DNA of 64,000 nucleotides from NCBI GenBank assembly GCA_937891765.1, contig CALAGQ010000001.1:14864-78863 (forward strand), given 5' to 3'. The notes below the pieces were generated by a model. The model was not told the origin of the DNA and did not search any database. It saw nothing but the letters and a program-made list of their open reading frames with translations. Numbering within the stretch: the first letter of the stretch is position 1; each line of letters opens with the position of its first letter. The position numbers and the translations under genes are program-made. The stretch comes from an uncultured Nitrospina sp. Its GTDB lineage: Bacteria > Nitrospinota > Nitrospinia > Nitrospinales > VA-1. Of this stretch, positions 24,068 through 36,019 are shown one piece after another.

Positions 24068-24701
24068 CCCCTGTGGTATCTTTTCGCTTTCCTTTACCCG
24101 TGCTGGGCATGAAATTTATGGTTGGAGATAGCAGGCATTCCCCGAAGGGGTAGATCCAGGGTTCTGGATTTATGCCTTTTTAAAAACGATGCTGATTGCT
24201 GAAAACTCTCTGACCAGATTCATTTGACGACATACAGATCTCGCAATTCATCTTCCGCAAAATCCAGCAACCTCACATAGTATCCCTTGTGGCATATTTC
24301 CTTGCGGGGATTTTTTGTGATGTTGGCTTTGATCCCGGTTTTTTCAAGGTTATTACTTTCGATTAGAAGCTTTCGTCGATTACTGTTCCCGTAGGCTTCT
24401 GTTTATGGAAACTCAAGTAAGGTAGATCTGTTTCGAATTCAGACCGAACCCACACACCTGAAATTCAAATCTCCTGTTGATTATGATCGAATAATTTTTG
24501 CATAAAAATAACGTACTTGTTGGCAGCTTCCAGAGCTGTGTCCATTTCCTCTATATTTTGAATCTGAACAAGCATGCTCATGAGCGAACTCCTTAATAAT
24601 CTGTTGACTCCTGAAATATATGTCGTGTATTCTGCTTCTTCTATTTGCCGGTGCGCAAGTTGAAATTTTAAATTTATTGCATTTCCCCATTAGGATTGAG
24701 A

Positions 24702-24995
24702 ATGAGCACAAGAAAAATGGCTACCACGTCATGGACTTTTTTGACGAATCATGCACATGTCTTGTTGTGCCTGGCCCAAAATCCATCTGAACGGATTCGA
24801 GATATAGCTGCGGAGGTTGGAATTACGGAACGCGCGGTTCAGCGTATTATCGTTGAGCTTGAAGCTGACAGGTATTTGGAGCACATTCGTGATGGGAGGA
24901 GGAATGTGTACAAGGTTCTTAGTCGCAAGCCTCTGCGGCATAGTGTTGAGAAGCATCGACAAGTACATGACCTGATTAAGCTAATTAAAAAATGA
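24702..24995 (+). CDS. winged-helix transcriptional regulator (MarR/ArsR-like HTH)
   Basis: 97 aa from ATG 24702 (AGGA 6 nt upstream). The HTH segment is IRDIAAEVGITERAVQRIIVELE, followed by a wing (GRRNVYKV). It lies 200 nt upstream of dabA on the same strand. Confidence 0.65.
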   Translation: MSTRKMATTSWTFLTNHAHVLLCLAQNPSERIRDIAAEVGITERAVQRIIVELEADRYLEHIRDGRRNVYKVLSRKPLRHSVEKHRQVHDLIKLIKK

Positions 24996-25196: not shown

Positions 25197-28100
25197 ATGA
25201 ATACTATTTCAGTGAAGCCTCTTTCCCCAGAAGATCGTGATCGGATTCGGCAAATTGTATTGAACGCCAGTGAGCCAATTGCGCCGTTTTGGCCCATGCG
25301 GACTATGGTCGCGCAGAATCCCCTTCATGGATTGGAATATCTGCCGTTTGATCAGGCTGTTCGAAAAGGCAAGGACCTCCTTGGTGGAAATGGGTATCTT
25401 GCGAATGAGGAGTATCGTCAACTTTACCGAAATGGTCGTATTACCAAAGAAAGTTTTAAGCGAGCTTTTTCCAGGGTTGGGCCTCGCCCAGAGGGGCAGG
25501 TTCCTATTGAAGTTGGAAGTCGAAAGATTATCCCCAAAGATGTTTGGCAATTATACTTACTTTTTGGCTTCGAGGGATTGCCATTATCCCTCTTGGAATG
25601 GGAGTTGAGCGGTGGTGGAGCTATAAAACAGTTTCGGCAAGATCTCTCCGAGGAATCCCGAAAAAAAATTATTGAACAAACCATCAAAGAAGGTGAACAG
25701 TTTCGGGAAAATCCAGAAGAGGCCTACCTGATAAATTTATGGGAGAGTGTGTTAACCACCTTCGGGCTATCTGATTTTCATGCTTCATCTCAAATACCTG
25801 AGGATTCGCATTCGCAAACTTCTGCACCCATTTCCTTGTCGCCTCAACGGACCATTAGCGATTGGGTTGATGGTTTAACTGAGGGTGGGGTGGTCGACCA
25901 AATCAATAATCAACTCATCAAATGGGTGACGGCGTTTCTCGATGAAGGATTAGCCGGCTGGGAAATGCCTGGCCGAGAAGAAGGTTTCTACCATGTATGG
26001 CGGAACCTGGCGCAGAAAGATTTTTCGGGGCGGCTTCTCGGGATTACAGATTTCGCCCAAAAAGTTCATAGCCTTCCTGCAACTCCAGAGGAGACGATCC
26101 GTTCCAGCTTGTACCAACTCGAAATTCCTCAAGAACAATGGGAAAATTATCTCTCAAGGCAACTATCATTATTACCAGGCTGGACACGATACATACGGTG
26201 GCTCGGGGAACACCCAACATACCATGCGCAACAAAAACATCCCATTGACACCACACAATATCTGGCCGTCCGTTTATTTTATGAAGTGGAGTTGACCAAC
26301 ATTAAGTGCCATCAAGAATGGGGAATTGATGGGACCGTTTCTACCCTGACGGCATATTGGAATGATCGACCCGAAGAATACCACCAACAAATTGGGCATG
26401 GAGGTCAATCTGGGGATCCAACCAAACAGATGAAATGTCGACATGCTTGGCGATTATTCCACTTGGCACAGTTTCTTGAATTATCTCCAGGAGAAGTTCA
26501 TGATCTCTCGCTTACTGATGCCCAGATGTTGTTGCAATGGTTAGATCACTTTCCTGCTGATCAACATGGGCAGGTATGGATTGAGGCGTACGAAGATTCC
26601 TTTCGAGAGGAGATGCTAAGAAATATTTCAGCGCATCGCGGAACGGTACCAGAATTGGAAACTCATCCCCATGCACAACTAGTCTTTTGTATCGACGTAC
26701 GTTCTGAATCATTTCGTCGCCATATTGAAGCCCAGGGTTCCTATGAAACGTTTGGGTTTGCAGGGTTTTTTGGCATTCCCATTAGCCATCAAGCTTTTGA
26801 TAGTGATCAACGTGGCGATTTATGTCCGGTGTTATTGACTCCTAACCATGCGGTGACGGAAACACCTCGGTCGGGAGAAGGAGCGGCCTTAGAAAAATAT
26901 TTTTCTGGTACTCGCTGGCACCAACTGGGGCACCATCTTTTTCACGATCTGAAGCATCATCCTATTGGGTCGATGATGATGATTGATGTATTGGGGTTCT
27001 TTTTTAGTCTGGGGTTGGTGGGCAAAACCTTGTTCCAAAAAATATTTCGTGCAATGACCTCTACTATCCAGAGTGGGTTGACACATAGGGTTCCAACCCA
27101 GATTTCAATTTCGACGCCGCCTGATCCTCAAAATCCCAAAATCGGAGAAGTGAATGCAGAAGGGATTCCTGACGGGCTTGCTCAAGGATTTTCTCTTTCT
27201 GAGCGGGCGACATTTATTGAAAATAGTTTGCGTACTATGGGGCTCACCAAAAATTTTGCGCGGTTGGTGTGCCTCTGTGGCCATGGAAGTGAGACGGACA
27301 ACAATCCCTATTATGGGGCGTTAGATTGCGGGGCTTGCGGGGGAGCGCCGGGAGATGCAAATGCGCGAGTTTTTGCCACGATGGCCAATGAACCTGAAGT
27401 TCGTCGCATTCTCAAGGAAAAAGGATTGCCGATTCCTGATGACACCTGGTTTCTTCCGGGGAAACATAACACGACGACTGATCGGGTCGAGTTTTATGAT
27501 CTAGAGGAATTGCCTGATTCGCACAAAAAAGATTTGCAGGCGTTGAACAAGGGCCTTGAAGAAGCTGGTGCGAAGCAGGCTCTTGAGCGATGCCATCGTA
27601 TTCCCAGTGCTCCGACTGAAATTTCTCCAGAGCAGGCTTTTGTTCATGTAGATGAACGCAGTTGCGATTGGGCGAGTACTCGACCGGAATGGGGATTAGC
27701 GGGCAATGGAGCGTTTCTCATTGGAAGACGAAAACTAAGCAAAGGATTAGATTTAGGCGGTCGGTCTTTTTTGCATTCTTATGATCCTGTTGATGATCCC
27801 CAGGGAGCCATCCTCGAAAAAATCATGACGGCGCCATTAATTGTCGGCGAGTGGATTAGCACAGGCTATTATTTTTCTGCGGTTGATCCGTGGGCGTATG
27901 GAAGTGGAAGTAAGGTGTTACACAATGTCGTTGGAGGAGTTGGGATGATGCTCGGGACCCAAAGTGATCTGCAAATGGGATTCCCCCTGCAGACGATCAA
28001 TAACGGGGACACTCACTATCATGAGCCCATGAGACTCTTAGCTATCATCGAACAGACGCCAAGTGTAATCTCATCTATCATTCAAAAACACTCGATTCTT

Positions 28101-28211
28101 CAACAGTTGTTTCATAATCAATGGCTTAATCTTGTGGCCTTGGATCCCCATACATTTGAGTTTCATCGGTATAATTCGAATGCTACGTGGGAAACGGTTC
28201 TTGTCCCTTAA
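25197..28211 (+). CDS. dabA: DabA (DUF2309) - carbonic-anhydrase-like subunit of DAB-type inorganic carbon pumps
   Basis: 1004 aa. The N-terminal [22 protein letters not shown] is typical of DUF2309. The putative Zn ligands are conserved: C498/D500 in FCIDVRSE (nt 26688-26696) and H696/C711 in [23 protein letters not shown] (nt 27282-27329). Confidence 0.9.
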   Translation: [1004 protein letters not shown]

Positions 28212-28349
28212 TTAGACATACAATGGAAGATAGGCGCTTGGACTACTACAAGAATACGGATGCTTCATTCCAAGTTTCCGGCTGGTTTTTTTTATAGGAA
28301 AAGTCGAGTAAACTGATGCTTTTCGGTCAAACCCGTATCTAATAATTTT

Positions 28350-28856
28350 ATGGCAACTCGATCTAGACCCATTTCTTCAAGATTCCTGTTTTTAAAAGCC
28401 ATGGCACTGTTTGTGTTTTGGGTTTTGATTTCTGCAAGCTTTGAATGGATTCATCTTGGTTTGGGGCTTGTTTTTTCCTTCGCCGTGGCCTGGATCAACT
28501 CTGGCCATTCACTTTTTGTTCCGAAATTTCGTTTGTGGCTCAGAATCCTCCTTTACCTTCCATGGCTTTTTTATAAGATCATTGAAAGCAGCCTTTATTT
28601 GTCCAAGCTTATTTTGCATCCTGCGCTTCCCATTGATCCTCAGTTGGTTTCTGTGGATTCAAAACTGCGTCACCACGCAGCCGTTGTTCTTCTCGGTAAC
28701 TCCATTACGTTAACCCCTGGAACGATTACCGTAGAGGTTGACAGTAATAAACTCATTGTTCACGCAATGGATAAGGTTTTAAGCGAAGATATTGAAAGTA
28801 AGCAGATCGAATCTAAAATTGCTGATATATTTAAGGACGAGGAACCGGATCTATGA
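28350..28856 (+). CDS. mrpE: Mrp/Mnh antiporter subunit E
   Basis: 168 aa with two N-terminal TM helices. It contains the MnhE-like block NSITLTPGTITVEVD...LIVHAMD. Its stop overlaps the next start as ATGA. Confidence 0.75.
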   Translation: MATRSRPISSRFLFLKAMALFVFWVLISASFEWIHLGLGLVFSFAVAWINSGHSLFVPKFRLWLRILLYLPWLFYKIIESSLYLSKLILHPALPIDPQLVSVDSKLRHHAAVVLLGNSITLTPGTITVEVDSNKLIVHAMDKVLSEDIESKQIESKIADIFKDEEPDL

Positions 28857-29119
28857 CAACTTTCTTTTTCTACGTTATGGTGCTGTTGGCTATTCTCATT
28901 GGTGCTTATCTGTACCGTGTCTTGCAGGGTCCCACAATTTTTGATCGTGTGTTGGGTCTCAATGGTATTTCCACCAAGGCAATTATTTTGTTTATTGTCA
29001 TAGGAACTTATTCTGAACGAGTCAATATGTTTATTGACATCTCGACCGGGTATGCCCTGATAAATTTAGTCGGAGCGCTTGCCGTGGCCAAATATTTGGA
29101 ACAAAAGGGACTTCCTTAG
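28853..29119 (+). CDS. mrpF: Mrp/Mnh antiporter subunit F
   Basis: 88 aa with three TM helices and the MrpF-like block GPTIFDRVLGLNGISTK. Confidence 0.8.
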   Translation: MTTFFFYVMVLLAILIGAYLYRVLQGPTIFDRVLGLNGISTKAIILFIVIGTYSERVNMFIDISTGYALINLVGALAVAKYLEQKGLP

Positions 29120-29120
29120 C

Positions 29121-29420
29121 ATGGACATACTTTCCATCATTTTTATAGTAGCGGGCTTATTTTTTATGATTGTTGCTGCGATTGGTGTGGTTCGATTACC
29201 TGATGTGTTTAGCCGTTCTCATGCCGTATCATTAACAGACTCCTTAGGTGCCTTTTTGATGTTAGTTGGAATCGCCTTCCATGAGGGGCTGGGTAAAAAT
29301 ACACTGAAAATTCTAGTGGTGTTGGCCTTGTTGTATATTCTAAATCCAGTCATTGCACATGCCACGATTCGCGCGGCTTTCCGGTCTGGTGTAAAACCTT
29401 GGCAAAAGAAATCCTCATGA
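29121..29420 (+). CDS. mrpG: Mrp/Mnh antiporter subunit G
   Basis: The start at ATG 29121 is 1 nt after the mrpF stop. The block AAIGVVRLPDVFSRSHAVSLTDSLG matches the MnhG signature (RLPD..R.HA). Confidence 0.8.
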   Translation: MDILSIIFIVAGLFFMIVAAIGVVRLPDVFSRSHAVSLTDSLGAFLMLVGIAFHEGLGKNTLKILVVLALLYILNPVIAHATIRAAFRSGVKPWQKKSS

Positions 29421-29947
29421 TCTTTCCATTTGAAATTCCTTTACTCCTTCTCCTGCTTGTTACCGCCGCCGGTGCCATCCTGGTTAAGGATTTGATGAGT
29501 GCCGTTCTACTCTTGGGCACTTACAGTTTTTTCCTGTCGTTGGTATGGGGATGGTTTGGAGCAGTAGATGTCGCCTTCGTGGAAGCCGTCGTAGGAGCAG
29601 GATTAGGTACGGTTTTGTTTCTATTAACTCTATTTGGTACTGCTCCCAAAGACACTCGGCTTCATCGTCCTCCTCCTTCTCTGTTAACGTTAATTGTTTT
29701 TCCCCTCTTGGGGTTTCTTTTGCTCTATGCCGCGAGCGATCTTCCTGAATTTAGGGACCCGAGTTCTCCAGCAAGTGTTCATATTTCGCCGACCTATCTT
29801 GAGCAGAGTTATCAGGATACCCACACTCCGAATGTTGTCACTGCGGTACTGATGGACTATCGATCGCTTGATACGATGGTCGAAACCGTAGTGATTTTTG
29901 CGGCGGGCATTGCTTGTATTTTACTGCTTAGGAGGCAAGTAAAATGA
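29417..29947 (+). CDS. DUF4040/MrpA-C-terminal-like plus MnhB-N-terminal-like membrane subunit (MbhD/E-like)
   Basis: The start at ATG 29417 overlaps the mrpG stop as ATGA. The GAVDVAFVEAVVGAGLGTVLF and NVVTAVLMDYRSLDTMVETVV blocks are typical of the MnhB/DUF4040 region. Confidence 0.7.
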   Translation: MIFPFEIPLLLLLLVTAAGAILVKDLMSAVLLLGTYSFFLSLVWGWFGAVDVAFVEAVVGAGLGTVLFLLTLFGTAPKDTRLHRPPPSLLTLIVFPLLGFLLLYAASDLPEFRDPSSPASVHISPTYLEQSYQDTHTPNVVTAVLMDYRSLDTMVETVVIFAAGIACILLLRRQVK

Positions 29948-30396
29948 TACGCCAACACGACAGTATTATCGTACATACCTTAGGGCGCTTTGTTATCCCG
30001 GTGGTCCAAATTTTTGGTTTATATGTGTTGTTTTTTGGGCAATACGGACCAGGCGGAGGCTTTGTGGGTGGGGTGATTCTAGGTTCGAGTATGATTTTAT
30101 CGGTCTTGATTTTTGGTCATGACGCTTCCCGGAGTCAAATTGTCAAAAAGGCTTTGCATGCTGATGGGGTAGGGCTGCTGATCTTCGCGGGTGTAGGTGG
30201 CTTGTGTATGATTGGAGGAGGAGAGTTTCTCAATTATGCAAATTTGGAAATTCCAGGTTTGGAAACTGCTTCTCGAAGATCTTTGGGGATCGTACTCACG
30301 CAAATCGGTGTGGCAGTAGATGTTGCGGTAACAGCCATTTCTATTGTGTTCAGTTTGTCTGCTGAAGAAATTATCGAGGATTCAATAAATGGTTGA
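29944..30396 (+). CDS. mrpB: Mrp/Mnh antiporter subunit B
   Basis: 150 aa with a GPGGGFVGG block and four TM helices. It overlaps its neighbour as ATGA. Confidence 0.7.
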   Translation: MIRQHDSIIVHTLGRFVIPVVQIFGLYVLFFGQYGPGGGFVGGVILGSSMILSVLIFGHDASRSQIVKKALHADGVGLLIFAGVGGLCMIGGGEFLNYANLEIPGLETASRRSLGIVLTQIGVAVDVAVTAISIVFSLSAEEIIEDSING

Positions 30397-30766
30397 TGCA
30401 TTTTTAGCAGTTTTTCATCGACCCAATTTTTTGACATTTGTCATCCTTTTTCTGTGGGGCTTTTATGTCATGGTTACGCGATACAATCTCGTAAAGAAAC
30501 TCATCGGGATGTATTTGGTGCAAACCAGCGTGATTTTTTTCCTAGTATCTATTAGCGTGAAGAAGGGCGCGACTGTTCCCGTGCTCTTGTCAATCACGGA
30601 GCCGGTGCAAGCGGCCAGCTATGCGAATCCGTTACCTCATGCACTGACGCTGACTGCTATTGTGGTTGGCGTGGCGACCACCGGCGTGGGTTTAGCCCTG
30701 TGCGGGGCAATCTATCGAAAATATGGAAGCCTTGACGAACAAGAAATTCTTGGAAAATTAGAATGA
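30389..30766 (+). CDS. mrpC: Mrp/Mnh antiporter subunit C (NuoK-like)
   Basis: 125 aa with three TM helices and the NuoK/MnhC-like block RYNLVKKLIGMYLVQTSVIFFLV. It overlaps mrpB by 8 nt. Confidence 0.75.
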   Translation: MVDAFLAVFHRPNFLTFVILFLWGFYVMVTRYNLVKKLIGMYLVQTSVIFFLVSISVKKGATVPVLLSITEPVQAASYANPLPHALTLTAIVVGVATTGVGLALCGAIYRKYGSLDEQEILGKLE

Positions 30767-32232
30767 GTCACCAACTTCCCGCAATCCTATTTCTTCTCCC
30801 ATTGTTTGCAGCTATTTCCATGCCAGTGGTTTGTCTAAAACACCATCACTGGAGCCAGTCAATTTCTGTGGCAACTCTCTCGGCTATGGTGCTGGTCTCT
30901 ATTTTGAATCTCCATAACGTCATTCATCATGGAGAAGTGCGGTATGTGTTTGGTGGGTGGGCTGTGTCCCTCGGCATTGAGTGGGTGGCTGATGGATTAG
31001 CAAGTGTCATCTTAGTGTTAATGAGTGCCTTATGTTTACTGGGTGTAATATTTACTGGACCCGCCTCCCCAAAGAATCTAGGTGGCCGAATCGTTCATTT
31101 TCACACGTTGATTTTATTATTGATGTCCTCTTTGACCGGCATTGTTTTCGCCGGGGATTTTTTCAATCTGTTCGTGTTTTTAGAAGTTGCAGCCATCTCG
31201 AGTTATGCGCTTATTGGTGCAGCTGGAGGGAGAGCGTTGTTTGCAGCCTTTCGCTATCTTATATTGGGAACCATTGGTGCCTCCCTTTTTCTTTTAGGGA
31301 TGAGTTATCTCTATGCGGTGACGGGCACACTGAATATGTCTGATATGGCCGACAAACTTCCTTTGTTGCTAAGCTCTAAAGCTCTAGTAGGTGGACTGCT
31401 TTTTTTGTTTATTGGTTTGGGGATCAAGATGGCCTTAGTCCCGTTTCATTCTTGGTTGCCCGAAGCCTATACTTATGCTCCTGATTCCATTTCCCCTATC
31501 CTAGCTTCACTCGTCACCAAAGTAGCGCTATTGGTGTGGATCAGAATACTCTATTGGGTCTTTAATGCGTCAAATATCATTAATGATATTCCGATTTTGC
31601 TACTGGTGGAAGTTGTTGGAGCATTAGCGGCGGTCATAGGCGCAAGTCTGGCCTTGGCTCAGCGGGATCTTAAAACGATGTTCGCTTATGGAGGGATTTC
31701 GCACATCGGCATCATTCTCATTGGAATCAGTCAAGGCAACCCCACCGGGTTTGTCGGAGGGGTTTTTTATTTATTGAATGATTCCGTTATGCAAGCGGGC
31801 TTGTTTTTTTTAGCAGGCGTCGCGTTTTGTCAGTATGGGGTCAGAGCTATTGATGACATAGGGCGTGTTGGGAAAGAAGCACCCTGGCTCACTGGGTCTT
31901 TAATTATTATGGCCTTCGGCATGATTGGCCTGCCTCCGACGGGTGGTTTTTTTGGCAAATGGTACATCATTCTTGGAGCGTTAGAAGCGGGCAATTATGT
32001 TTCGGTCGCTGCGGTGGTGCTCTCCACGCTCTTGACGCTTGCCTACTTCATTAAACTGTTTGAGGGCATTTTTCACCAAACATCAACTCGATTGGACGTT
32101 CAGTTTGGTGAAATTCCCCTCTCATTTAAACTGACTCTGGGAGTTACGTCCGTAGCTATCATTATTCTTGGTTTATTCAGTTCTCCCATTATTCAACTGT
32201 TGTTGAATCACGCTCTGCCACCAACTCTTTGA
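30763..32232 (+). CDS. mrpD: Mrp subunit D / NuoN-M-like antiporter-like subunit
   Basis: 489 aa and polytopic. It has proton-conducting-transporter blocks (FLEVAAISSYALI, GIKMALVPFHSWLPEAYTYAP, DLKTMFAYGGISHIG). It overlaps mrpC as ATGA. Confidence 0.85.
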   Translation: MSHQLPAILFLLPLFAAISMPVVCLKHHHWSQSISVATLSAMVLVSILNLHNVIHHGEVRYVFGGWAVSLGIEWVADGLASVILVLMSALCLLGVIFTGPASPKNLGGRIVHFHTLILLLMSSLTGIVFAGDFFNLFVFLEVAAISSYALIGAAGGRALFAAFRYLILGTIGASLFLLGMSYLYAVTGTLNMSDMADKLPLLLSSKALVGGLLFLFIGLGIKMALVPFHSWLPEAYTYAPDSISPILASLVTKVALLVWIRILYWVFNASNIINDIPILLLVEVVGALAAVIGASLALAQRDLKTMFAYGGISHIGIILIGISQGNPTGFVGGVFYLLNDSVMQAGLFFLAGVAFCQYGVRAIDDIGRVGKEAPWLTGSLIIMAFGMIGLPPTGGFFGKWYIILGALEAGNYVSVAAVVLSTLLTLAYFIKLFEGIFHQTSTRLDVQFGEIPLSFKLTLGVTSVAIIILGLFSSPIIQLLLNHALPPTL

Positions 32233-32240
32233 GAGGAATT

Positions 32241-34421
32241 ATGGCTCTTTTCGTCCTCATTCCCTTGCTTCCCTTTTTGGCTTCTCTCATTCTTCTGCTT
32301 GGGGGACGTCGTTGGGGTGAGAACGGTCACCGAATTGGGATTCCTGCCATCGGTATCTCTTTTGGGTTATCAGTTGCCGCTTTCATTGAAGTGTGGAGAA
32401 ATGGACCATTTACTGTTTCTCTTTATCGCCTCTTTCAATCTGGTTCCTTAACCATTGATTTAACTCTGTTCGTTGACCAACTGACGGTTTTGCTTTTGCT
32501 CTTGGTTACAGGAGTAAGTGGGGTTGTGCATGTGTATTCCTCTCGTTACATGATAGGAGAGTCCCGATATAATCGTTTTTTTGCCGTCATTGCCTTGTTT
32601 ACTTTTTCTATGATTTTGTTGGTCATGAGTGGCAATCTTTTGATGACGTTGATTAGCTGGGAAGTCATGGGGATCTGTTCCTATCTGCTAATTTCTCACG
32701 CAGCAGAACGTCCTTCAGCTTGCAGGGCGGCCACCAAAGCTTTTCTCGTTAACGCAGTCGCGGATGTCTGGTTCAGTTTTGGCATCATTCTAACCTTTTT
32801 CACCTTTGGTACACTCGATATCCAGACTATTCTTCTTCAGGCTGAAGGTATGCAGGACTACACCATCAATATCTTAGGGTGGATGGGCTTGGATCTTAAT
32901 ATCTATCCTGTGGCGCTTATTCCCTTCTTCCTCTTTATAGGGGCTATGGGAAAATCAGCACAAATACCATTTCACGTTTGGTTACCCGGGGCGATGGAAG
33001 CTCCGACTCCGGTCTCGGCGCTTATTCATGCGGCTACTATGGTGAATGCGGGTCCGTTTTTGTTAGTGCGCTTGAGTCCGTTGATTGTCCTTTCTCCCTA
33101 CGCCATGACTTTCATTGTCATTATTGGTGCCACTACCGCGGTATTTGCTGGGATAGTTTCCTTGACTCAATCGGACATCAAAAAGATTTTGGCCTATTCC
33201 ACAATTAGTCAAATCGGATTCATGGTTATGGCCTGTGGTTTGGGCGCGTTTGCAGTTGCAATTTTCCATCTTCTTGCCCATGGGTGCTACAAAGCGTTCT
33301 TTTTTCTATCTACTGGCAATGCGTTGCGATCAGTGGAACAGGGACTTGGGCATGGTGACCATGAACACCATGTCTCTGAGGGCATGGGGATCTTATATGG
33401 CGGGGCCTTGTTGTTGGCGTTAATCCCGCCGTTAGTTCTGTTCTCAGGATCATATGAATATTTGTGGGGGGTCACGGGGTTTGCTTCTGCAGCGATCGGA
33501 TTCAAAATCATTGGCTTGATTACAGTATTTGTGACTTCTCAATATCTTTTTAAAAACGTCACTTCGCTTTTTGCTCACGATCCAAAGACGTACTGGCTCG
33601 CTTCAGGACAAAATAGTTTGGAGAAACAATCTGTACGACGCCAGTTCTTAAATGGCTCCATTTTAACTGGTCTTTTTCTAACTACGGTTTTTGCAGGTGG
33701 GCTCTTGACTCTGTTTTGGAGTTGGTTCGCCAACTTTCTTGCACCGGCTTTGACCCTTCCAGGGGTCAAGTTAGCTGAAGGTACAGTCGAGCGCGGCTTT
33801 CCTTTTTGGCTTGTTGTTTCTCTTGGCGTGGCAGTGGCGGGGTGGGTCTATGCATACTCCACACAGGTACGATCTCAACATCAGATATCCAGAACAAATG
33901 GGAGAAGCAATCGATTGTATGTCTTTTTTTGGAATAAAGGATACTTTGATGAAATCTATGATGTCTATCTGGTAACCCCAACCATTAAGTTCGCACACTG
34001 GCTGTGGCGAACTATTGATATAAGGGGTATAGATCATTTCATCCATTCTATCGCGACTTATTCTGTGTGTTTTGCCGGGTGGCTGTGGCGAATTATTGAT
34101 ATAAGGGTGATAGATCATTTCATCCATTCTATCGCGACTTATTCTGTGTGTTTTGCCGGGTGGCTGTGGCGAATTATTGATATAAGGGTGATAGATCATT
34201 TCATCCATTTTTTCGCGGCTAATTCTGTTTATTTTTCCCGGTGGTTATGGCGAACGGTTGATATTAATTGGTTGGAGCGGAAAGTGGGGCATGCAGCAGA
34301 AAAAATTAATGATTCGGGGCAATTACTGAAAGAAATTGAACCCCGTACCATCCAACATCAGTTATTTGTAATGATATTTTGGTTAGTTGCGATGACTTTT
34401 CTATTGTATAACATGCTTTAA
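32241..34421 (+). CDS. NuoL/MrpA-N-terminal-like antiporter-like subunit (DabB-type candidate) with an expanded lateral-helix region
   Basis: ATG 32241 is preferred (GAGAGGA Shine-Dalgarno) over TTG 32229. NuoL hallmarks are present: WEVMGICSYLLISH, GAMGKSAQIPFHVWLPGAMEAPTPVSALIHAATMVNAG, DIKKILAYSTISQIGFM and YFDEIYDVYLVTP. The C-terminal region contains the 27-aa tandem repeat. Confidence 0.85.
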   Translation: MALFVLIPLLPFLASLILLLGGRRWGENGHRIGIPAIGISFGLSVAAFIEVWRNGPFTVSLYRLFQSGSLTIDLTLFVDQLTVLLLLLVTGVSGVVHVYSSRYMIGESRYNRFFAVIALFTFSMILLVMSGNLLMTLISWEVMGICSYLLISHAAERPSACRAATKAFLVNAVADVWFSFGIILTFFTFGTLDIQTILLQAEGMQDYTINILGWMGLDLNIYPVALIPFFLFIGAMGKSAQIPFHVWLPGAMEAPTPVSALIHAATMVNAGPFLLVRLSPLIVLSPYAMTFIVIIGATTAVFAGIVSLTQSDIKKILAYSTISQIGFMVMACGLGAFAVAIFHLLAHGCYKAFFFLSTGNALRSVEQGLGHGDHEHHVSEGMGILYGGALLLALIPPLVLFSGSYEYLWGVTGFASAAIGFKIIGLITVFVTSQYLFKNVTSLFAHDPKTYWLASGQNSLEKQSVRRQFLNGSILTGLFLTTVFAGGLLTLFWSWFANFLAPALTLPGVKLAEGTVERGFPFWLVVSLGVAVAGWVYAYSTQVRSQHQISRTNGRSNRLYVFFWNKGYFDEIYDVYLVTPTIKFAHWLWRTIDIRGIDHFIHSIATYSVCFAGWLWRIIDIRVIDHFIHSIATYSVCFAGWLWRIIDIRVIDHFIHFFAANSVYFSRWLWRTVDINWLERKVGHAAEKINDSGQLLKEIEPRTIQHQLFVMIFWLVAMTFLLYNML
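33999..34268 (+). repeat. 81-bp (27-codon) in-frame tandem repeat, about 3.4 copies, inside the NuoL-like gene
   Basis: Unit starts (tggctgtggcgaa...) fall at 33999, 34080, 34161 and 34242. By hand alignment, copies 1 and 2 differ at 3 of 81 nt. Copies 2 and 3 are identical for 45 nt and then differ at 8 positions. Copy 4 is partial. Confidence 0.95.
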
Positions 34422-34549
34422 TGAGTTACCGACTTGTATTCCTAAATTTATAAAAAATGGGTCTGGTTGAAAATGGCCTTACGTCATTTTTCTTGTGCTA
34501 ACTTGAAAAGCAAGGAGTTTACTGCTTTCGTGGGACGGAGATTTTTTAA

Positions 34550-36019
34550 ATGGCTCTATTGATGGATCATCTGATTAGCTGGATGATTGTCGTTCCTTTT
34601 TTAGGAATCGTCATTCTGGCATTTTTGCGTGATGAAGAATCGATTCGACGAATTGCCCTTGGCATCACAATGGTGGAGGTTCTCCTTTCGCTGATACTCT
34701 GGAGGAGTTTCGATTCCACTTTGCAAGGCATGCAGTTCGTGGAGCGCTTGGAATGGATGCCCACGTTTAATATTCAGTATGCGGTTGGTGTTGATGGTAT
34801 TAGTATTCTTATGGTGATACTCACAGCCCTTCTTTGTCCACTCTGTGTCCTTTGTTCGTGGACGGGAATTACAACACGAGTACGAGCCTATCTCTCGCTG
34901 ATCTTGTTAGTTGAAGGTGCCATGATTGTGGTCTTTACCGCCCTGGACCTTTTCCTGTTTTTCATGTTGTGGGAACTTACAATGATTCCCATGTATTTCA
35001 TGATTATTCTCTGGGGTGGGCCGAATCGTATTGCTGCTGGGCTTAAATTCGTTTTGTATAGTCTAACAGGAAGCTTACTGCTACTGGTGGGAATATTGGG
35101 TGTTTATCTTAATGGGGGACATACCTACGATCTTTTGGTGTTAACTGAACAAACTTATTCTTCCAGCACGCAATTCTGGTTATTCTTGGCGTTCTTTCTG
35201 GCTTTTGCTATAAAAATGCCAATGGTTCCCTTTCATACGTGGCTCCCTGACGCCCACTCCGAAGCTCCTACGGCTGGCAGCGTGATTTTGGCTGGAGTGC
35301 TCTTGAAAATGGGAGGATATGGGTTTTTGCGTTTTTGTTTACCTATGTTTCCAGAGGCTTCGGTGAATTTCGCCCCATATATTTTGTGGTTGTCGGTTAC
35401 AGCCATTATCTATGGTGGGTATATGGCCTTGGCACAGTCTGATCTTAAAAAGCTCATAGCCTATTCTTCAGTTTCCCACATGGGTTTTGTTACTCTCGGA
35501 ATTTTTGTGTTCAATAGCCAAGGTATCCAAGGCGCTGTCTTGCAAATGTTTAATCACGGGATTACTACTGCAGCCTTATTTATTTGTGTTGGACAATTGT
35601 ACGAGCGCACTCACAGTCGAGCGATTTCCGACTACGGCGGCTTGCATAATTCCATGCCAAGATTTGTCACATTGTTCTTTTTGTTTTCAGTCGCCGGCTT
35701 TGGGCTACCAGGCACCTGTAATTTCATTGGTGAATTTTTGGTCTTAGTCGGAGTTTCCTATGTCAACTTTGCCATGGTTCTTATCTCTATGGGAGGTATT
35801 GTTTTAGCTGCTGCATATATGTTGTGGATGCTCCAAAGGGTGGCGTTGGGAGAACCATCGACAGAAGCCGCCAAAGTGCTCCCTGATATATCGAATCGGG
35901 AATTGGCTACGCTGATTCCATTGGCTATCCTCGTATTGTGTATTGGATTGTATCCCGGACCATTGATGGAAGTGATGAATGCGAGTGTGATTCACCTCAT
36001 CCAATCTGGCGTAAATTAA
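34550..36019 (+). CDS. NuoM/MrpD-like antiporter-like subunit
   Basis: 489 aa. NuoM hallmarks are present: FFMLWELTMIPMYFMI, AFAIKMPMVPFHTWLPDAHSEAPTAGSVILAGVLLKMGGYGFLRF and DLKKLIAYSSVSHMGF. Confidence 0.85.
   Translation: MALLMDHLISWMIVVPFLGIVILAFLRDEESIRRIALGITMVEVLLSLILWRSFDSTLQGMQFVERLEWMPTFNIQYAVGVDGISILMVILTALLCPLCVLCSWTGITTRVRAYLSLILLVEGAMIVVFTALDLFLFFMLWELTMIPMYFMIILWGGPNRIAAGLKFVLYSLTGSLLLLVGILGVYLNGGHTYDLLVLTEQTYSSSTQFWLFLAFFLAFAIKMPMVPFHTWLPDAHSEAPTAGSVILAGVLLKMGGYGFLRFCLPMFPEASVNFAPYILWLSVTAIIYGGYMALAQSDLKKLIAYSSVSHMGFVTLGIFVFNSQGIQGAVLQMFNHGITTAALFICVGQLYERTHSRAISDYGGLHNSMPRFVTLFFLFSVAGFGLPGTCNFIGEFLVLVGVSYVNFAMVLISMGGIVLAAAYMLWMLQRVALGEPSTEAAKVLPDISNRELATLIPLAILVLCIGLYPGPLMEVMNASVIHLIQSGVN

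What the first reader, a model, noticed from the sequence alone, without database searches (positions are those of the whole stretch)
33999..34268. Near-perfect 81-bp in-frame tandem repeat triplicates the start of the NuoL lateral helix
Seen in sequence:
- Repeat units start at 33999, 34080, 34161 and 34242. The period is exactly 81 bp (27 codons) and the repeat is in frame.
- By hand alignment, copies 1 and 2 differ at 3 of 81 nt. Copies 2 and 3 are identical for 45 nt and then differ at 8 positions. Copy 4 is partial.
- The peptide units are WLWRTIDIRGIDHFIHSIATYSVCFAG, WLWRIIDIRVIDHFIHSIATYSVCFAG, WLWRIIDIRVIDHFIHFFAANSVYFSR and WLWRTVDINWLERK.
- The array sits directly after the conserved YFDEIYDVYLVTP motif and before the last predicted TM helix (LFVMIFWLVAMTFLLY).

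Established knowledge: in NuoL/NdhF the segment after FDxxYxxxFVxP (D-x3-IDG-xVNG...) begins the long amphipathic lateral helix HL, which runs along the neighbouring antiporter-like subunits. Complex I variants with an extra NuoM are reported to carry a correspondingly longer HL (Chadwick et al. 2018).

Inference: the repeat multiplies the HL-start module. Two extra 27-residue helical units would add roughly 80 A at 1.5 A per residue. That would be enough to reach across additional subunits in this three-antiporter-subunit cluster. The near-identical DNA copies imply a recent or concerted duplication. They also raise the possibility of copy-number variation or assembly collapse.
Basis: partly seen in the sequence, partly recalled or inferred. 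Interest (0 to 1): 0.75.

Follow-up and report, generated by a model that had tools for sequence, protein, structure and literature searches.

The report
Variable-length lateral helix repeat in NuoL-like protein
An 81-bp in-frame tandem repeat really does lengthen the surface "strap" helix of a NuoL-like membrane subunit; the same 27-residue module is present in 1 to 4 extra copies across the whole protein family, but its number does not follow the number of pump genes next to it.

Summary
An 81-bp in-frame tandem array of 3.2 copies lies at 33999-34254, inside a 726-aa NuoL-like gene (32241-34421).

The repeated 27-residue unit is the conserved start module of the lateral helix HL, between the YFDEIY motif and the last transmembrane helix (TM16).

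- **Not strain-specific as a feature.** All 228 relatives examined carry extra modules: 26 have one, 149 two, 46 three and 7 four. None has zero. Ordinary NuoL has none.
- **Recent origin of copy 2.** It is a chimera: head of copy 3, tail of copy 1. That is the product of unequal crossing-over in a two-unit ancestor. Alleles identical elsewhere lack exactly these 81 bp.
- **Real, not misassembled.** The three-unit gene is 100% nucleotide-identical in two further assemblies.
- **Recurrent.** Near-identical adjacent units occur in many lineages.
- **Under selection.** Old, diverged units keep the motif W-L-W-x3-D-x3-I-D at 93-98%.

The gene sits in a conserved 10-gene cluster, DabA-MrpEFG-MbhD/E-MnhB-MrpC-MrpD-NuoL-like-NuoM-like, found in five phyla. 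That cluster always has three antiporter-like genes, whatever the module count. The simple "longer helix for more encoded subunits" reading is therefore not supported.

Verdict: a new, multi-copy, length-polymorphic variant of the known ~26-aa HL insertion. What the extra length does is unresolved.

The parts
32241..34421 (+). Gene for the 726-aa NuoL-like / DabB-like antiporter-like subunit that carries the repeat. An alternative TTG start lies at 32229.
   Evidence: - ORF list.
- Pfam PF00662 and PF00361.
- PDB sequence hits to NuoL/ND5, E = 6e-81.
- AF2 model: pLDDT 79.7, pTM 0.80. Best fold matches are complex I NuoL chains.
- Orthologues start at MALF.
33942..33980 (+). YFDEIYDVYLVTP, the conserved motif that opens the lateral helix (residues 568-580).
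   Evidence: - Y568 and P580 are invariant, and D570, E571 and Y573 invariant or nearly so, in 145 relatives.
- Aligns to YFDEIYEFIFVRP of Paracoccus NuoL, 8qby_L.
33999..34079 (+). HL module 1 (unit A): WLWRTIDIRGIDHFIHSIATYSVCFAG.
   Evidence: -.
- Present in the 2-unit alleles P0001 and P0350.
34080..34160 (+). HL module 2, the recent extra copy. It is a chimera of the head of unit B (positions 0-48) and the tail of unit A (positions 30-80).
   Evidence: - Difference pattern between copies.
- Exactly these 81 nt are missing from L084, which is otherwise 100% identical.
- P0350 is 100% identical in protein outside this unit.
34161..34241 (+). HL module 3 (unit B): WLWRIIDIRVIDHFIHFFAANSVYFSR.
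34242..34361 (+). Terminal, diverged module plus the rest of HL (WLWRTVDINWLERKVGHAAEKINDSGQLLKEIEPRTIQHQ). This is the counterpart of the single canonical HL of ordinary NuoL.
   Evidence: - After removing n x 27 aa, family C-termini are about 78 aa (counted from the Y of YFDEIY) against 72-80 aa (from the F/V of the FD/VDxxY motif) in ordinary NuoL.
- AF2 helices 649-672 and 675-688.
34362..34409 (+). Last transmembrane helix (TM16 equivalent): LFVMIFWLVAMTFLLY.
   Evidence: - Eisenberg hydrophobicity 0.6-0.8, against 0.25-0.36 for the units.
- AF2 helix 702-725.
34029..34209 (+). Two overlapping copies of a 100-nt exact repeat at offset 81 (34029-34128 = 34110-34209). This is the substrate for further unequal recombination or slippage, and for assembly collapse.
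25197..36019 (+). Context: the 10-gene cluster.
- DabA 25197-28211
- MrpE 28350-28856
- MrpF 28853-29119
- MrpG 29079-29420
- MbhD/E-like 29399-29947
- MnhB 29944-30396
- MrpC/NuoK-like 30389-30766
- MrpD 30763-32232
- NuoL-like 32241-34421
- NuoM-like 34550-36019
   Evidence: - Pfam assignments.
- The same order and content in Nitrospinota, Planctomycetota, Bryobacterales, Pseudohongiella and Nitrospirota loci.

Best explanation
**What it is.** The array is an in-frame, variable-number tandem repeat of the 27-residue start module of the lateral helix HL. HL is the cytoplasmic, membrane-surface helix that links TM15 to TM16 in NuoL/MrpA-type subunits and braces the neighbouring membrane modules.

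**How the array changes (shown).**
- New copies arise by unequal crossing-over or replication slippage between existing 81-bp units.
- In this window a two-unit allele (A-B) became A-(B head/A tail)-B very recently.
- The same kind of event has happened repeatedly across the family, which holds 1 to 4 extra modules.

**What each copy encodes (inferred).**
- Each module encodes one further helical segment with the signature W-L-W-x3-D-x3-I-D.
- The segments lie at the membrane surface, not across the membrane.
- HL grows by about 40 Å per module if helical. In this protein that is about 137 residues (~200 Å) in place of the usual ~55-60.

**Function (inferred, least certain).**
- Old modules stay under purifying selection and lengths stay quantised, so the extra length is used. 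The most likely use is as a longer brace or spacer.
- Such a brace would reach past the two neighbouring antiporter-like subunits, over the Mrp small-subunit block of this DabA-Mrp-type complex.
- The exact number of modules is only loosely constrained. The newest copy in this window may be nearly neutral.
For: **Repeat anatomy**
-.
- The module is homologous to the canonical HL start.
- Distance from the FD/VDxxY motif to the C-terminus (counted from the Y of YFDEIY in the family): 72-80 aa in ordinary NuoL; about 105, 132, 160 or 186 aa in the family. The steps are 27 aa.
- Copy-number distribution among 228 proteins: one extra 26, two 149, three 46, four 7.

**Recent origin and reality of the allele**
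- Copy 2 is chimeric.
- P0350 is 100% identical in protein outside the missing unit.
- L084 is 100% identical in DNA apart from an exact 81-bp gap.
- The three-unit gene is 100% nucleotide-identical in two other assemblies. Twelve contigs carry it.

**Recurrence**
- Adjacent units are 100% identical in P0336, P0313 (three in a row) and P0276. They are at least 93% identical in eight further proteins.
- The N. gracilis isolate genome has its own 81-bp array of 3.1 copies.

**Selection**
- 155 old units keep W1 98%, L2 95%, I/V/L11 94%, D/E12 97%, S/T22 93%.
- Across all 490 units: W1 97%, L2 95%, W3 98%, D7 93%, D12 90%.
- Bryobacterales and Pseudohongiella keep the length (159 and 155 aa) although their middle units have decayed.

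**Surface helix rather than transmembrane**
- Unit hydrophobicity is 0.25-0.36, against 0.6-0.8 for TM16.
- AF2 gives helices 569-618, 625-645, 649-672 and 675-688 with short breaks.
- Both odd and even copy numbers occur. That would flip the topology of TM16 if the units crossed the membrane (inference).

**Known role of HL**
- HL braces the complex and connects the TMH7s on the cytoplasmic side (PMC7419157).
Against: - AF2 confidence over units 2-3 and the stretch just before TM16 is low (pLDDT 39-63). I could not inspect coordinates, so straight versus folded-back geometry is unknown.
- No multimer model or structure of the complex exists.
- A 27-residue period is 7.5 turns of an ideal helix. 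Successive modules would face opposite ways unless the predicted breaks reset the phase.
- Module number (1-3) varies with constant gene content. The one 4-module locus is cut off upstream but has only one NuoM-like gene downstream. A fixed docking geometry is hard to reconcile with this.
- Between units A and B of this window, codon changes are 9 nonsynonymous to 1 synonymous. This fits relaxed constraint on the unit tail.
Confidence: 0.6

Rival explanations
1. Strict ruler. Each extra module accommodates one extra antiporter-like subunit in the assembled complex, as proposed for 2M complex I. On this reading the window's protein would strap 5 neighbours, either through multiple copies of the NuoM-like or MrpD subunit or through subunits encoded elsewhere.
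For: - The ~26-aa HL insertion is published as the correlate of a second NuoM (PMC9040806 citing Chadwick 2018).
- In my control, no locus with a 0-extra NuoL has a second nuoM.
- All four Chloroflexi loci with one extra module and readable downstream genes have two nuoM: L014, L063, L083 and L044.
- 27 aa x 1.5 Å is about 40 Å, roughly one subunit width (from memory).
Against: - The cluster has exactly three antiporter-like genes with 1, 2 or 3 extra modules. The 4-module locus L087 has only one NuoM-like gene downstream.
- Alleles that are 100% identical elsewhere differ by one module.
- Several complex-I loci have 1-2 extra modules and only L-M-N in cis: L016, L032, L033, L040, L066, L069, L075 and L085.
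- Yu et al. also report insertions without extra pumps.
Confidence: 0.12
2. Tolerated slippage product. The third copy in this window, and other very recent copies, are neutral or slightly deleterious length polymorphisms of a surface helix. They have no function of their own.
For: - The copy is absent from alleles identical elsewhere.
- Two extra modules is the modal state, in 149 of 228 proteins. Three and four are rarer.
- Many identical adjacent units occur at the tips of the family.
- The 100-nt exact repeat makes gain and loss easy.
Against: - Three-module arrays with units only ~40% identical to each other are stably kept in whole clades, for example P0130 and P0248-P0255.
- Old units retain the motif.
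- Length is retained even where unit sequence decays.
- The allele recurs in 12 contigs.
Confidence: 0.25
3. Assembly artefact. The extra copy was created by the assembler.
For: - The 100-nt exact repeat at offset 81 forms a cycle in de Bruijn graphs with k below 100. Copy number is therefore ambiguous for short k.
Against: - The 3-unit form contains a junction absent from the 2-unit form: B-head variants at unit positions 28-29 joined to A-tail variants at 49-51, about 20 nt apart. It cannot be built from 2-unit reads with k of 21 or more (inference).
- The gene is 100% nucleotide-identical in two independent SPAdes assemblies at ~20-24x coverage, and 12 contigs carry it.
- Collapse of 3 units to 2 is the likelier artefact.
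- The isolate genome of N. gracilis has 3 modules.
Confidence: 0.03
4. The units are transmembrane segments or hairpins that add helices to the membrane domain.
For: - The second half of each Nitrospinaceae unit (FIHSIATYSVCFAGWLW) is fairly hydrophobic.
Against: - Each unit carries conserved D7, R9, D12 and R/H13.
- Mean hydrophobicity is 0.25-0.36, well below TM16.
- Nitrospirota units are Gly- and polar-rich.
- Copy numbers 1, 2, 3 and 4 all occur. This is incompatible with a fixed TM16 topology if each unit crossed the membrane.
- The unit is homologous to the surface helix HL of solved NuoL structures.
Confidence: 0.03
5. Docking or oligomerisation scaffold. The repeated modules bind the large cytoplasmic DabA subunit or link neighbouring complexes. 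Copy number would then tune spacing or valency rather than the number of pump subunits.
For: - The family is always found with DabA in the same operon.
- The NuoL-like subunit has lost LysTM12/Asp, as DabB has, so it is the probable DabA partner.
- Mrp forms dimers through MrpE (PMC7419157).
Against: - In the DAB2 structure DabA engages DabB through a membrane-inserted finger at TM12-14. There DabB has only a short HL (PMC13144422).
- There is no direct evidence for HL-DabA contact.
Confidence: 0.08

Closest known systems
Lateral helix HL of complex I subunit NuoL / Nqo12 / ND5
   Same: - Same position, between TM15 and the last TM helix.
- Same opening motif (Y)FDxxYxxxxVxP followed by xLWxxxDxxxIDGxxN.
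- Whole-protein fold matches NuoL chains, TM-score 0.64-0.71 normalised to the target.
- GluTM5, LysTM7 and the TM8 His/Lys are kept.
   Different: - Three additional 27-aa modules: 158 aa from YFDEIY to the end, against 72-80 aa.
- LysTM12/Asp are lost.
- The gene is not in a nuo operon but in a DabA-Mrp cluster.
NuoL of '2M' complex I and MrpD2 of Ca. Manganitrophaceae Complex_I_3, with a ~26-aa HL insertion (Chadwick et al. 2018, as summarised in PMC9040806)
   Same: - An insertion of one ~26-27-aa stretch at the same place in HL.
- In my data the insertion is visibly a tandem duplicate of the (W)FDxxxIDGxVNG module, for example in L064, L040, L014 and L074.
- In Chloroflexi loci it goes with a second nuoM.
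   Different: - Here there are 1-4 extra modules rather than one.
- There is DNA-level near-identity between copies, and strain-level length polymorphism.
- There is no extra antiporter-like gene in the cluster.
MrpA of Mrp (CPA3) antiporters
   Same: - The cluster holds MrpC, D, E, F, G and MnhB homologues.
- MrpA braces the complex with HL running from TMH15 to TMH16 (PMC7419157).
   Different: - In MrpA the C-terminal domain is fused after TM16. Here the protein ends after TM16, and an MbhD/E-like gene is separate.
- There is an additional NuoM-like subunit and a DabA gene.
- HL is much longer.
DabB of DAB (DabA/DabB) vectorial carbonic anhydrase complexes
   Same: - Encoded with a full-length DabA (PF10070, E = 2e-263).
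- LysTM12/Asp are replaced, as in a canonical DabB.
- DabB is NuoL-like (PMC13144422).
   Different: - DabB2 has 15 TM helices and only a short HL, residues 499-527. The canonical DabB next to the cluster in L003 ends soon after the VDLVY motif.
- This protein has a very long HL plus TM16.
- It lies seven genes away from dabA.
- By sequence it is closer to NuoL (E = 6e-81) than to DabB2 (E = 6e-39).
In-frame variable-number tandem repeats (VNTR / contingency-type repeats) in bacterial proteins
   Same: - The period is a multiple of 3.
- Copies are near-identical.
- Gain and loss occur by unequal recombination or slippage.
- Length differs between otherwise identical alleles.
   Different: - It sits inside a conserved polytopic bioenergetic membrane subunit, not a surface adhesin or antigen.
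- Units are under purifying selection for a structural motif.
- No evidence of phase-variable switching.

Membership tests
NuoL/MrpA-type antiporter-like subunit (PF00361 + PF00662) | Pfam Proton_antipo_M and Proton_antipo_N domains above the gathering score | tested here: met
   PF00361 at 191.4 bits (cut-off 21.5). PF00662 at 56.8 bits (cut-off 24.5).
NuoL/MrpA-type antiporter-like subunit (PF00361 + PF00662) | NuoL fold with lateral helix and a C-terminal anchoring TM helix | tested here: met
   - AF2 pTM 0.80.
- Best Foldseek hits are NuoL/ND5 chains aligned over 650-690 columns.
- The HL motif aligns to 8qby_L residues 614-660.
- Confidence over the extra modules is low.
NuoL/MrpA-type antiporter-like subunit (PF00361 + PF00662) | Conserved charged residues of the proton path, including LysTM12 | tested here: not met
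   - GluTM5 (WEVMG), LysTM7 (GAMGKSAQ) and TM8 (FHLLAHGCYKAF) are present.
- The TM12 motif GFFSKDEIL is replaced by LFSGSYEYLW.
DabB (DAB complex membrane subunit) | Encoded together with DabA (PF10070) | tested here: met
   - DabA is the first gene of the same cluster.
- The association is conserved in 8 loci from 5 phyla.
- The two genes are not adjacent: seven genes lie between them.
DabB (DAB complex membrane subunit) | 15 TM helices with only a short HL and no TM16 | tested here: not met
   - About 137-residue HL region plus a terminal TM helix.
- DabB2 has a short HL, residues 499-527 (PMC13144422).
- The L003 DabB ends soon after the motif.
2M-type complex I NuoL | About 26-aa insertion in HL | tested here: met
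   Three 27-aa modules beyond the canonical length.
2M-type complex I NuoL | A second NuoM, giving a fourth pumping subunit in the complex | tested here: not met
   Only MrpD, the NuoL-like and one NuoM-like gene are in the cluster, here and in all relatives. Genes elsewhere in the genome were not examined.
2M-type complex I NuoL | Part of a nuo operon with quinone- and redox-module genes | tested here: not met
   The cluster holds DabA and Mrp-type small subunits. No NuoB/C/D/H/I homologues lie between 25197 and 36019.
In-frame VNTR | Head-to-tail repeat with a period divisible by 3, and copy number differing between otherwise identical alleles | tested here: met
   - Period 81.
- P0350 and L084 are identical except for one unit.
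- A 672-aa allele lies in the same 90% cluster.

The most novel reading that the evidence does not exclude
The number of HL modules sets how many membrane modules one lateral helix straps together. Those modules could be extra copies of the NuoM-like or MrpD subunit, the Mrp small-subunit block, or a second protomer.

On this reading, unequal crossing-over in an 81-bp repeat acts as a genetic 'gear shift'. It would change the ion-to-CO2 stoichiometry or the oligomeric state of a previously undescribed DabA-Mrp machine between closely related strains.
Probability: 0.1. Interest if true: 0.85.

Novelty: new variant of a known kind. Interest (0 to 1): 0.6.

Why it matters
The role of the lateral helix in complex I and Mrp-type machines is usually described as a brace (PMC7419157). 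As I recall, without checking it here, the alternative of a moving coupling rod has also been debated, and so far it has been probed mostly with engineered insertions and cross-links.

This family offers a natural length series. The same 10-gene complex carries 1, 2, 3 or 4 extra 27-residue modules, including pairs of alleles identical except for one module. That makes the length dependence of assembly and activity directly testable.

It also shows that the published ~26-aa HL insertion is one instance of a general mechanism: tandem duplication of the HL start module. HL length is not a reliable predictor of the number of pump subunits encoded in cis.

Finally, the host cluster joins a DabA CO2-hydrating subunit to a full Mrp-type module. 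My term searches of the held library found no paper describing such a cluster.

Tried and rejected
- **First AF2 run.** It used 65 closely related orthologues and gave mean pLDDT 54.5 with the C-terminus below 50. I discarded it in favour of a 145-sequence alignment (pLDDT 79.7). Even then units 2-3 score 39-63.
- **Foldseek against the PDB**. It only confirms the NuoL fold.
- **Chadwick et al. 2018** (PMC6194058) is not held. Its claim is cited second-hand from PMC9040806.
- **Literature searches** for DabA together with MrpA/MrpD/MnhD, or for Nitrospina with DabA/DUF2309/Mrp, found nothing describing this cluster. Two searches failed on term length.
- **Hydrophobic moment.** It is only moderate, at most 0.46. 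Amphipathicity is suggestive, not decisive.
- **Covariation of module number with gene content.** Tested and rejected for this family.
- **Minus-strand ORF 33771-34208** (145 aa, itself repetitive). I take it to be the mirror image of the repeat, not a gene.
- **P0166 and P0222**, hits with many matched stretches in the representative search, are unrelated repeat proteins.
Full report
**1.

Tandem Repeats Finder reports a single strong array at 33999-34254. It has period 81, 3.2 copies, 92% matches, no indels and score 421. The four unit starts (33999, 34080, 34161, 34242) are all in frame with the ORF.

- Copy 1 differs from copy 2 at 3 of 81 nt.
- Copy 2 differs from copy 3 at 8 of 81 nt, all at unit position 49 or later.
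- The fourth unit is diverged, with 44-48 differences.

A consequence is a 100-nt exact repeat at offset 81: 34029-34128 equals 34110-34209.

The likely start codon is ATG 32241 (726 aa), because the orthologues begin MALF. I use 726-aa numbering below.

**2. What carries the repeat**

The ORF has Pfam Proton_antipo_N and Proton_antipo_M domains. Its best solved relatives by sequence are NuoL/ND5 chains of complex I, E = 6e-81 for 8qby_L. DabB2 (6e-39) and MrpA (5e-37) follow at a distance.

A second AlphaFold2 run with 145 diverse relatives gave mean pLDDT 79.7 and pTM 0.80. Foldseek places that model with NuoL chains.

The gene is the ninth of a tightly packed 10-gene cluster: DabA, MrpE, MrpF, MrpG, an MbhD/E-like protein, MnhB, MrpC/NuoK-like, MrpD, this NuoL-like protein and a NuoM-like protein.

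In an alignment with enterobacterial NuoL the protein keeps GluTM5, LysTM7 and the TM8 His/Lys. The TM12 motif GFFSKDEIL is replaced by LFSGSYEYLW. A canonical DabB shows a comparable replacement. In the DAB2 structure, a membrane finger of DabA supplies the missing acidic residue at this place (PMC13144422). The protein is therefore plausibly the DabA partner. This step is an inference.

**3. What the unit is**

The first unit follows YFDEIYDVYLVTPTIKFAH. It aligns with the segment VLWKGGDGAVIDGTINGVA that follows YFDEIYEFIFVRP in Paracoccus NuoL. That is the beginning of the lateral helix HL.

In about 50 ordinary NuoL genes recovered by a genome scan, the distance from the FD/VDxxY motif to the C-terminus is 72-80 aa. 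In this family, counted from the Y of YFDEIY, it is quantised at about 105, 132, 160 or 186 aa. That equals a canonical-length C-terminus of about 78 aa plus 1, 2, 3 or 4 times 27.

The fourth, diverged unit of the window plus what follows it is thus the counterpart of the canonical HL. Units 1-3 are extra modules.

Over 490 units the consensus is W-L-W-[RQ]-x-[IV]-D-[IV]-[RK]-[GV]-I-D-R-[FA]-[VI]-x-[GS]-I-[AG]-x-x-S-V-x-[FL]-A-[RG]. Conservation is W1 97%, L2 95%, W3 98%, D7 93%, I11 85% and D12 90%.

**4. The repeat is family-wide and dynamic**

- **Within Nitrospinaceae.** All 120 best relatives of the window protein are Nitrospinaceae sequences, with lengths clustering at ~672, ~699 and ~726 aa.
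- **Beyond Nitrospinaceae.** A search seeded with a distant member added Nitrospirota and other sequences of ~670, ~696, ~724 and ~751 aa.
- **Distribution.** Among 228 proteins, 26 have one extra module, 149 two, 46 three and 7 four. None has zero.
- **Recent duplications in many lineages.** Adjacent units are 100% identical in P0336, P0313 (three in a row) and P0276. They are at least 93% identical in P0270, P0266, P0124, P0279, P0259, P0007, P0002 and the window.
- **Isolate genome.** Nitrospina gracilis has its own 81-bp array of 3.1 copies at 81% matches.
- **Positional orthology with some turnover.** Between proteins, identity is A-A 0.571, B-B 0.528 and A-B 0.495. Within a protein, A-B is 0.556. 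Thirty of 148 proteins exceed the 90th percentile of foreign comparisons. The arrays are therefore partly old and stable, with some conversion or turnover.
- **Selection on old units.** Units less than 50% identical to any sister unit (n = 155) still keep W1 98%, L2 95%, I/V/L11 94%, D/E12 97%, S/T22 93% and A/G/S26 96%. Positions 3 and 7 were used as a register filter and are not counted.
- **Length conservation.** In Bryobacterales and Pseudohongiella the middle units have decayed in sequence, but the overall length (159 and 155 aa) is kept.

**5. Origin of the extra copy in this window**

Copy 2 equals copy 3 over unit positions 0-48 and copy 1 over positions 30-80. This is exactly the product of unequal crossing-over, or slippage, between units A and B of a two-unit array: A-B becomes A-(B head/A tail)-B.

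The predicted parent exists.
- P0350 (699 aa, seen on 18 contigs) is 100% identical to the window protein over residues 1-586 and over the last 59 residues. It lacks only this unit.
- The contig L084 is 100% identical in DNA over the aligned region apart from an exact 81-bp gap.

The three-unit allele is not an assembly product.
- It contains a head-B/tail-A junction that the two-unit form lacks. The distinguishing bases lie about 20 nt apart (inference).
- Twelve public contigs carry the exact protein.
- The gene is 100% nucleotide-identical in two further assemblies, ERZ890510 and ERZ890250, at ~20-24x coverage.

The reverse artefact, collapse of three units to two, cannot be excluded for the two-unit contigs. 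The cause is the 100-nt exact repeat.

**6. Surface helix or membrane segment**

- Unit hydrophobicity on the Eisenberg scale is 0.25-0.36. The last helix scores 0.6-0.8. The hydrophobic moment reaches 0.46 in the second half of each unit.
- AF2 predicts helices 569-618, 625-645, 649-672 and 675-688, with short breaks at the [IV]-D-[IV]-R part of the units, and then TM16 at 702-725.
- Confidence is 71-79 up to about residue 610 and only 39-63 beyond. I could not inspect coordinates.
- Independent of any model, copy numbers 1, 2, 3 and 4 all occur. Segments that cross the membrane would invert the last helix with every odd change.

I conclude that the modules are surface (cytoplasmic) helical segments, like the HL they derive from. 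[quoted passage not shown]

**7. Does length follow subunit number?**

The published idea is that a ~26-aa HL insertion accommodates a fourth pumping subunit (PMC9040806 citing Chadwick et al. 2018).

My control on ordinary nuo loci partly reproduces it.
- Every locus with a canonical-length NuoL and readable downstream genes has just L-M-N.
- The four Chloroflexi loci with one extra module and readable downstream genes have two nuoM (L014, L063, L083, L044).
- Seven Acidobacteriota, Bacteroidota and other loci with one extra module have only L-M-N in cis: L016, L032, L033, L040, L066, L069 and L075.
- A NuoL with two extra modules (P0202, L085) also has only L-M-N in cis.
- Yu et al. also note insertions in complexes without extra pumps.

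In the present family the test is clean. The same 10 genes, with exactly three antiporter-like genes, accompany 1, 2 or 3 extra modules.

| Locus | Taxon or source | Extra modules |
|---|---|---|
| L003, L007 | Nitrospinota | 1 |
| L084 | metagenome contig, allele near-identical to the window's | 2 |
| L005 | Planctomycetota | 2 |
| L009 | Nitrospirota | 2 |
| window | the window itself | 3 |
| L001 | N. gracilis | 3 |
| L006 | Bryobacterales | ~3 (by length; middle units decayed) |
| L008 | Pseudohongiella | ~3 (by length; middle units decayed) |

The four-module allele (L087) is cut off upstream but has only one NuoM-like gene downstream.

A canonical HL already spans two neighbours, so three encoded antiporter-like subunits need no extension.

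**8. Most likely mechanism**

*Shown.* The array is an in-frame VNTR of the HL start module. It is generated by unequal recombination or slippage, is present throughout the family and is maintained by selection at the motif level.

*Inferred.* Each module adds one helical segment of about 40 Å to a cytoplasmic surface strap.

*Inferred, weaker.* Every family member has at least one extra module, and length is conserved even where sequence decays. The complex therefore probably needs a strap longer than that of complex I. A plausible reason is that the strap must run beyond the NuoM-like and MrpD subunits, over the Mrp small-subunit block (MrpC, MbhD/E, MnhB, F, G, E). The exact number of modules is only loosely constrained, and the newest copy in this window may be nearly neutral.

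*Unresolved difficulty.* A 27-residue period is 7.5 helical turns. Successive modules can present the same face only if the predicted breaks reset the phase.

**9. Comparison and novelty**

The closest known thing is the ~26-aa HL insertion of 2M complex I and of MrpD2 in Ca. Manganitrophaceae.

What is new here:
- The insertion is a duplicate of the HL start module.
- It can be iterated up to four times.
- It is length-polymorphic between otherwise identical alleles.
- It occurs in a DabA-Mrp cluster with no extra pump gene.

I rate it a new variant of a known kind. The host cluster itself, conserved in five phyla, did not turn up in my term searches of the library. It deserves its own study.

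Noticed in passing
window 25197-36019; also L001, L003, L005, L006, L007, L008, L009: A conserved 10-gene cluster joins a full-length DabA (PF10070) to a complete Mrp-type set (MrpE, F, G, MbhD/E-like, MnhB, MrpC, MrpD) plus NuoL-like and NuoM-like subunits. The gene order is the same in Nitrospinota, Planctomycetota, Bryobacterales, Pseudohongiella and Nitrospirota. No paper found by my term searches of the library describes a DabA-Mrp cluster.
   Followed up: partly
window 32241-34421, residues ~395-410: The NuoL-like subunit has LFSGSYEYLW where NuoL has GFFSKDEIL. LysTM12/Asp are therefore lost, as in DabB, while GluTM5, LysTM7 and the TM8 His/Lys are kept. This suggests it is the subunit that receives the DabA membrane finger.
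   Followed up: partly
L003 14627-21261: In a 1-module relative, a second, canonical DAB operon lies directly downstream of the DabA-Mrp cluster. It comprises a DabB of ~564 aa, a 408-aa protein without a Pfam hit, a DabA of 1088 aa and a P-II protein.
   Followed up: no
window ~33836-33839 (G-run in GCGGGGTGGG): Two database alleles in the same 90% cluster (P0355, P0359; 577 aa) read as a 1-nt loss in this G-run. That shifts the frame and ends the protein before the lateral helix. They are either sequencing errors or HL-less pseudogene alleles.
   Followed up: no
window 33771-34208, minus strand: A 145-aa minus-strand ORF with its own internal repeat (…PQPPGKTHRISRDRMDEMIY… twice). I take it to be the mirror image of the 81-bp array, not a gene.
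   Followed up: partly
window 24696-24995; L001 2598-2894: A small HTH protein sits just upstream of dabA. It is 99 aa here; in N. gracilis the 98-aa counterpart has MarR_2/HTH_24 hits. It is a candidate regulator of the cluster.
   Followed up: no
L085 185-2491 (P0202, 768 aa): A complex-I-type NuoL in a nuoK-L-M-N context carries two extra HL modules without an extra nuoM in cis. Several Acidobacteriota loci carry one extra module likewise (L016, L032, L033, L040, L066). HL extension without a cis-encoded extra pump subunit is therefore widespread.
   Followed up: partly
P0313, P0336, P0276 (proteins): Some Nitrospirota-type relatives have two or three adjacent HL modules that are 100% identical in protein. 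These are even more recent expansions than the one in this window.
   Followed up: partly
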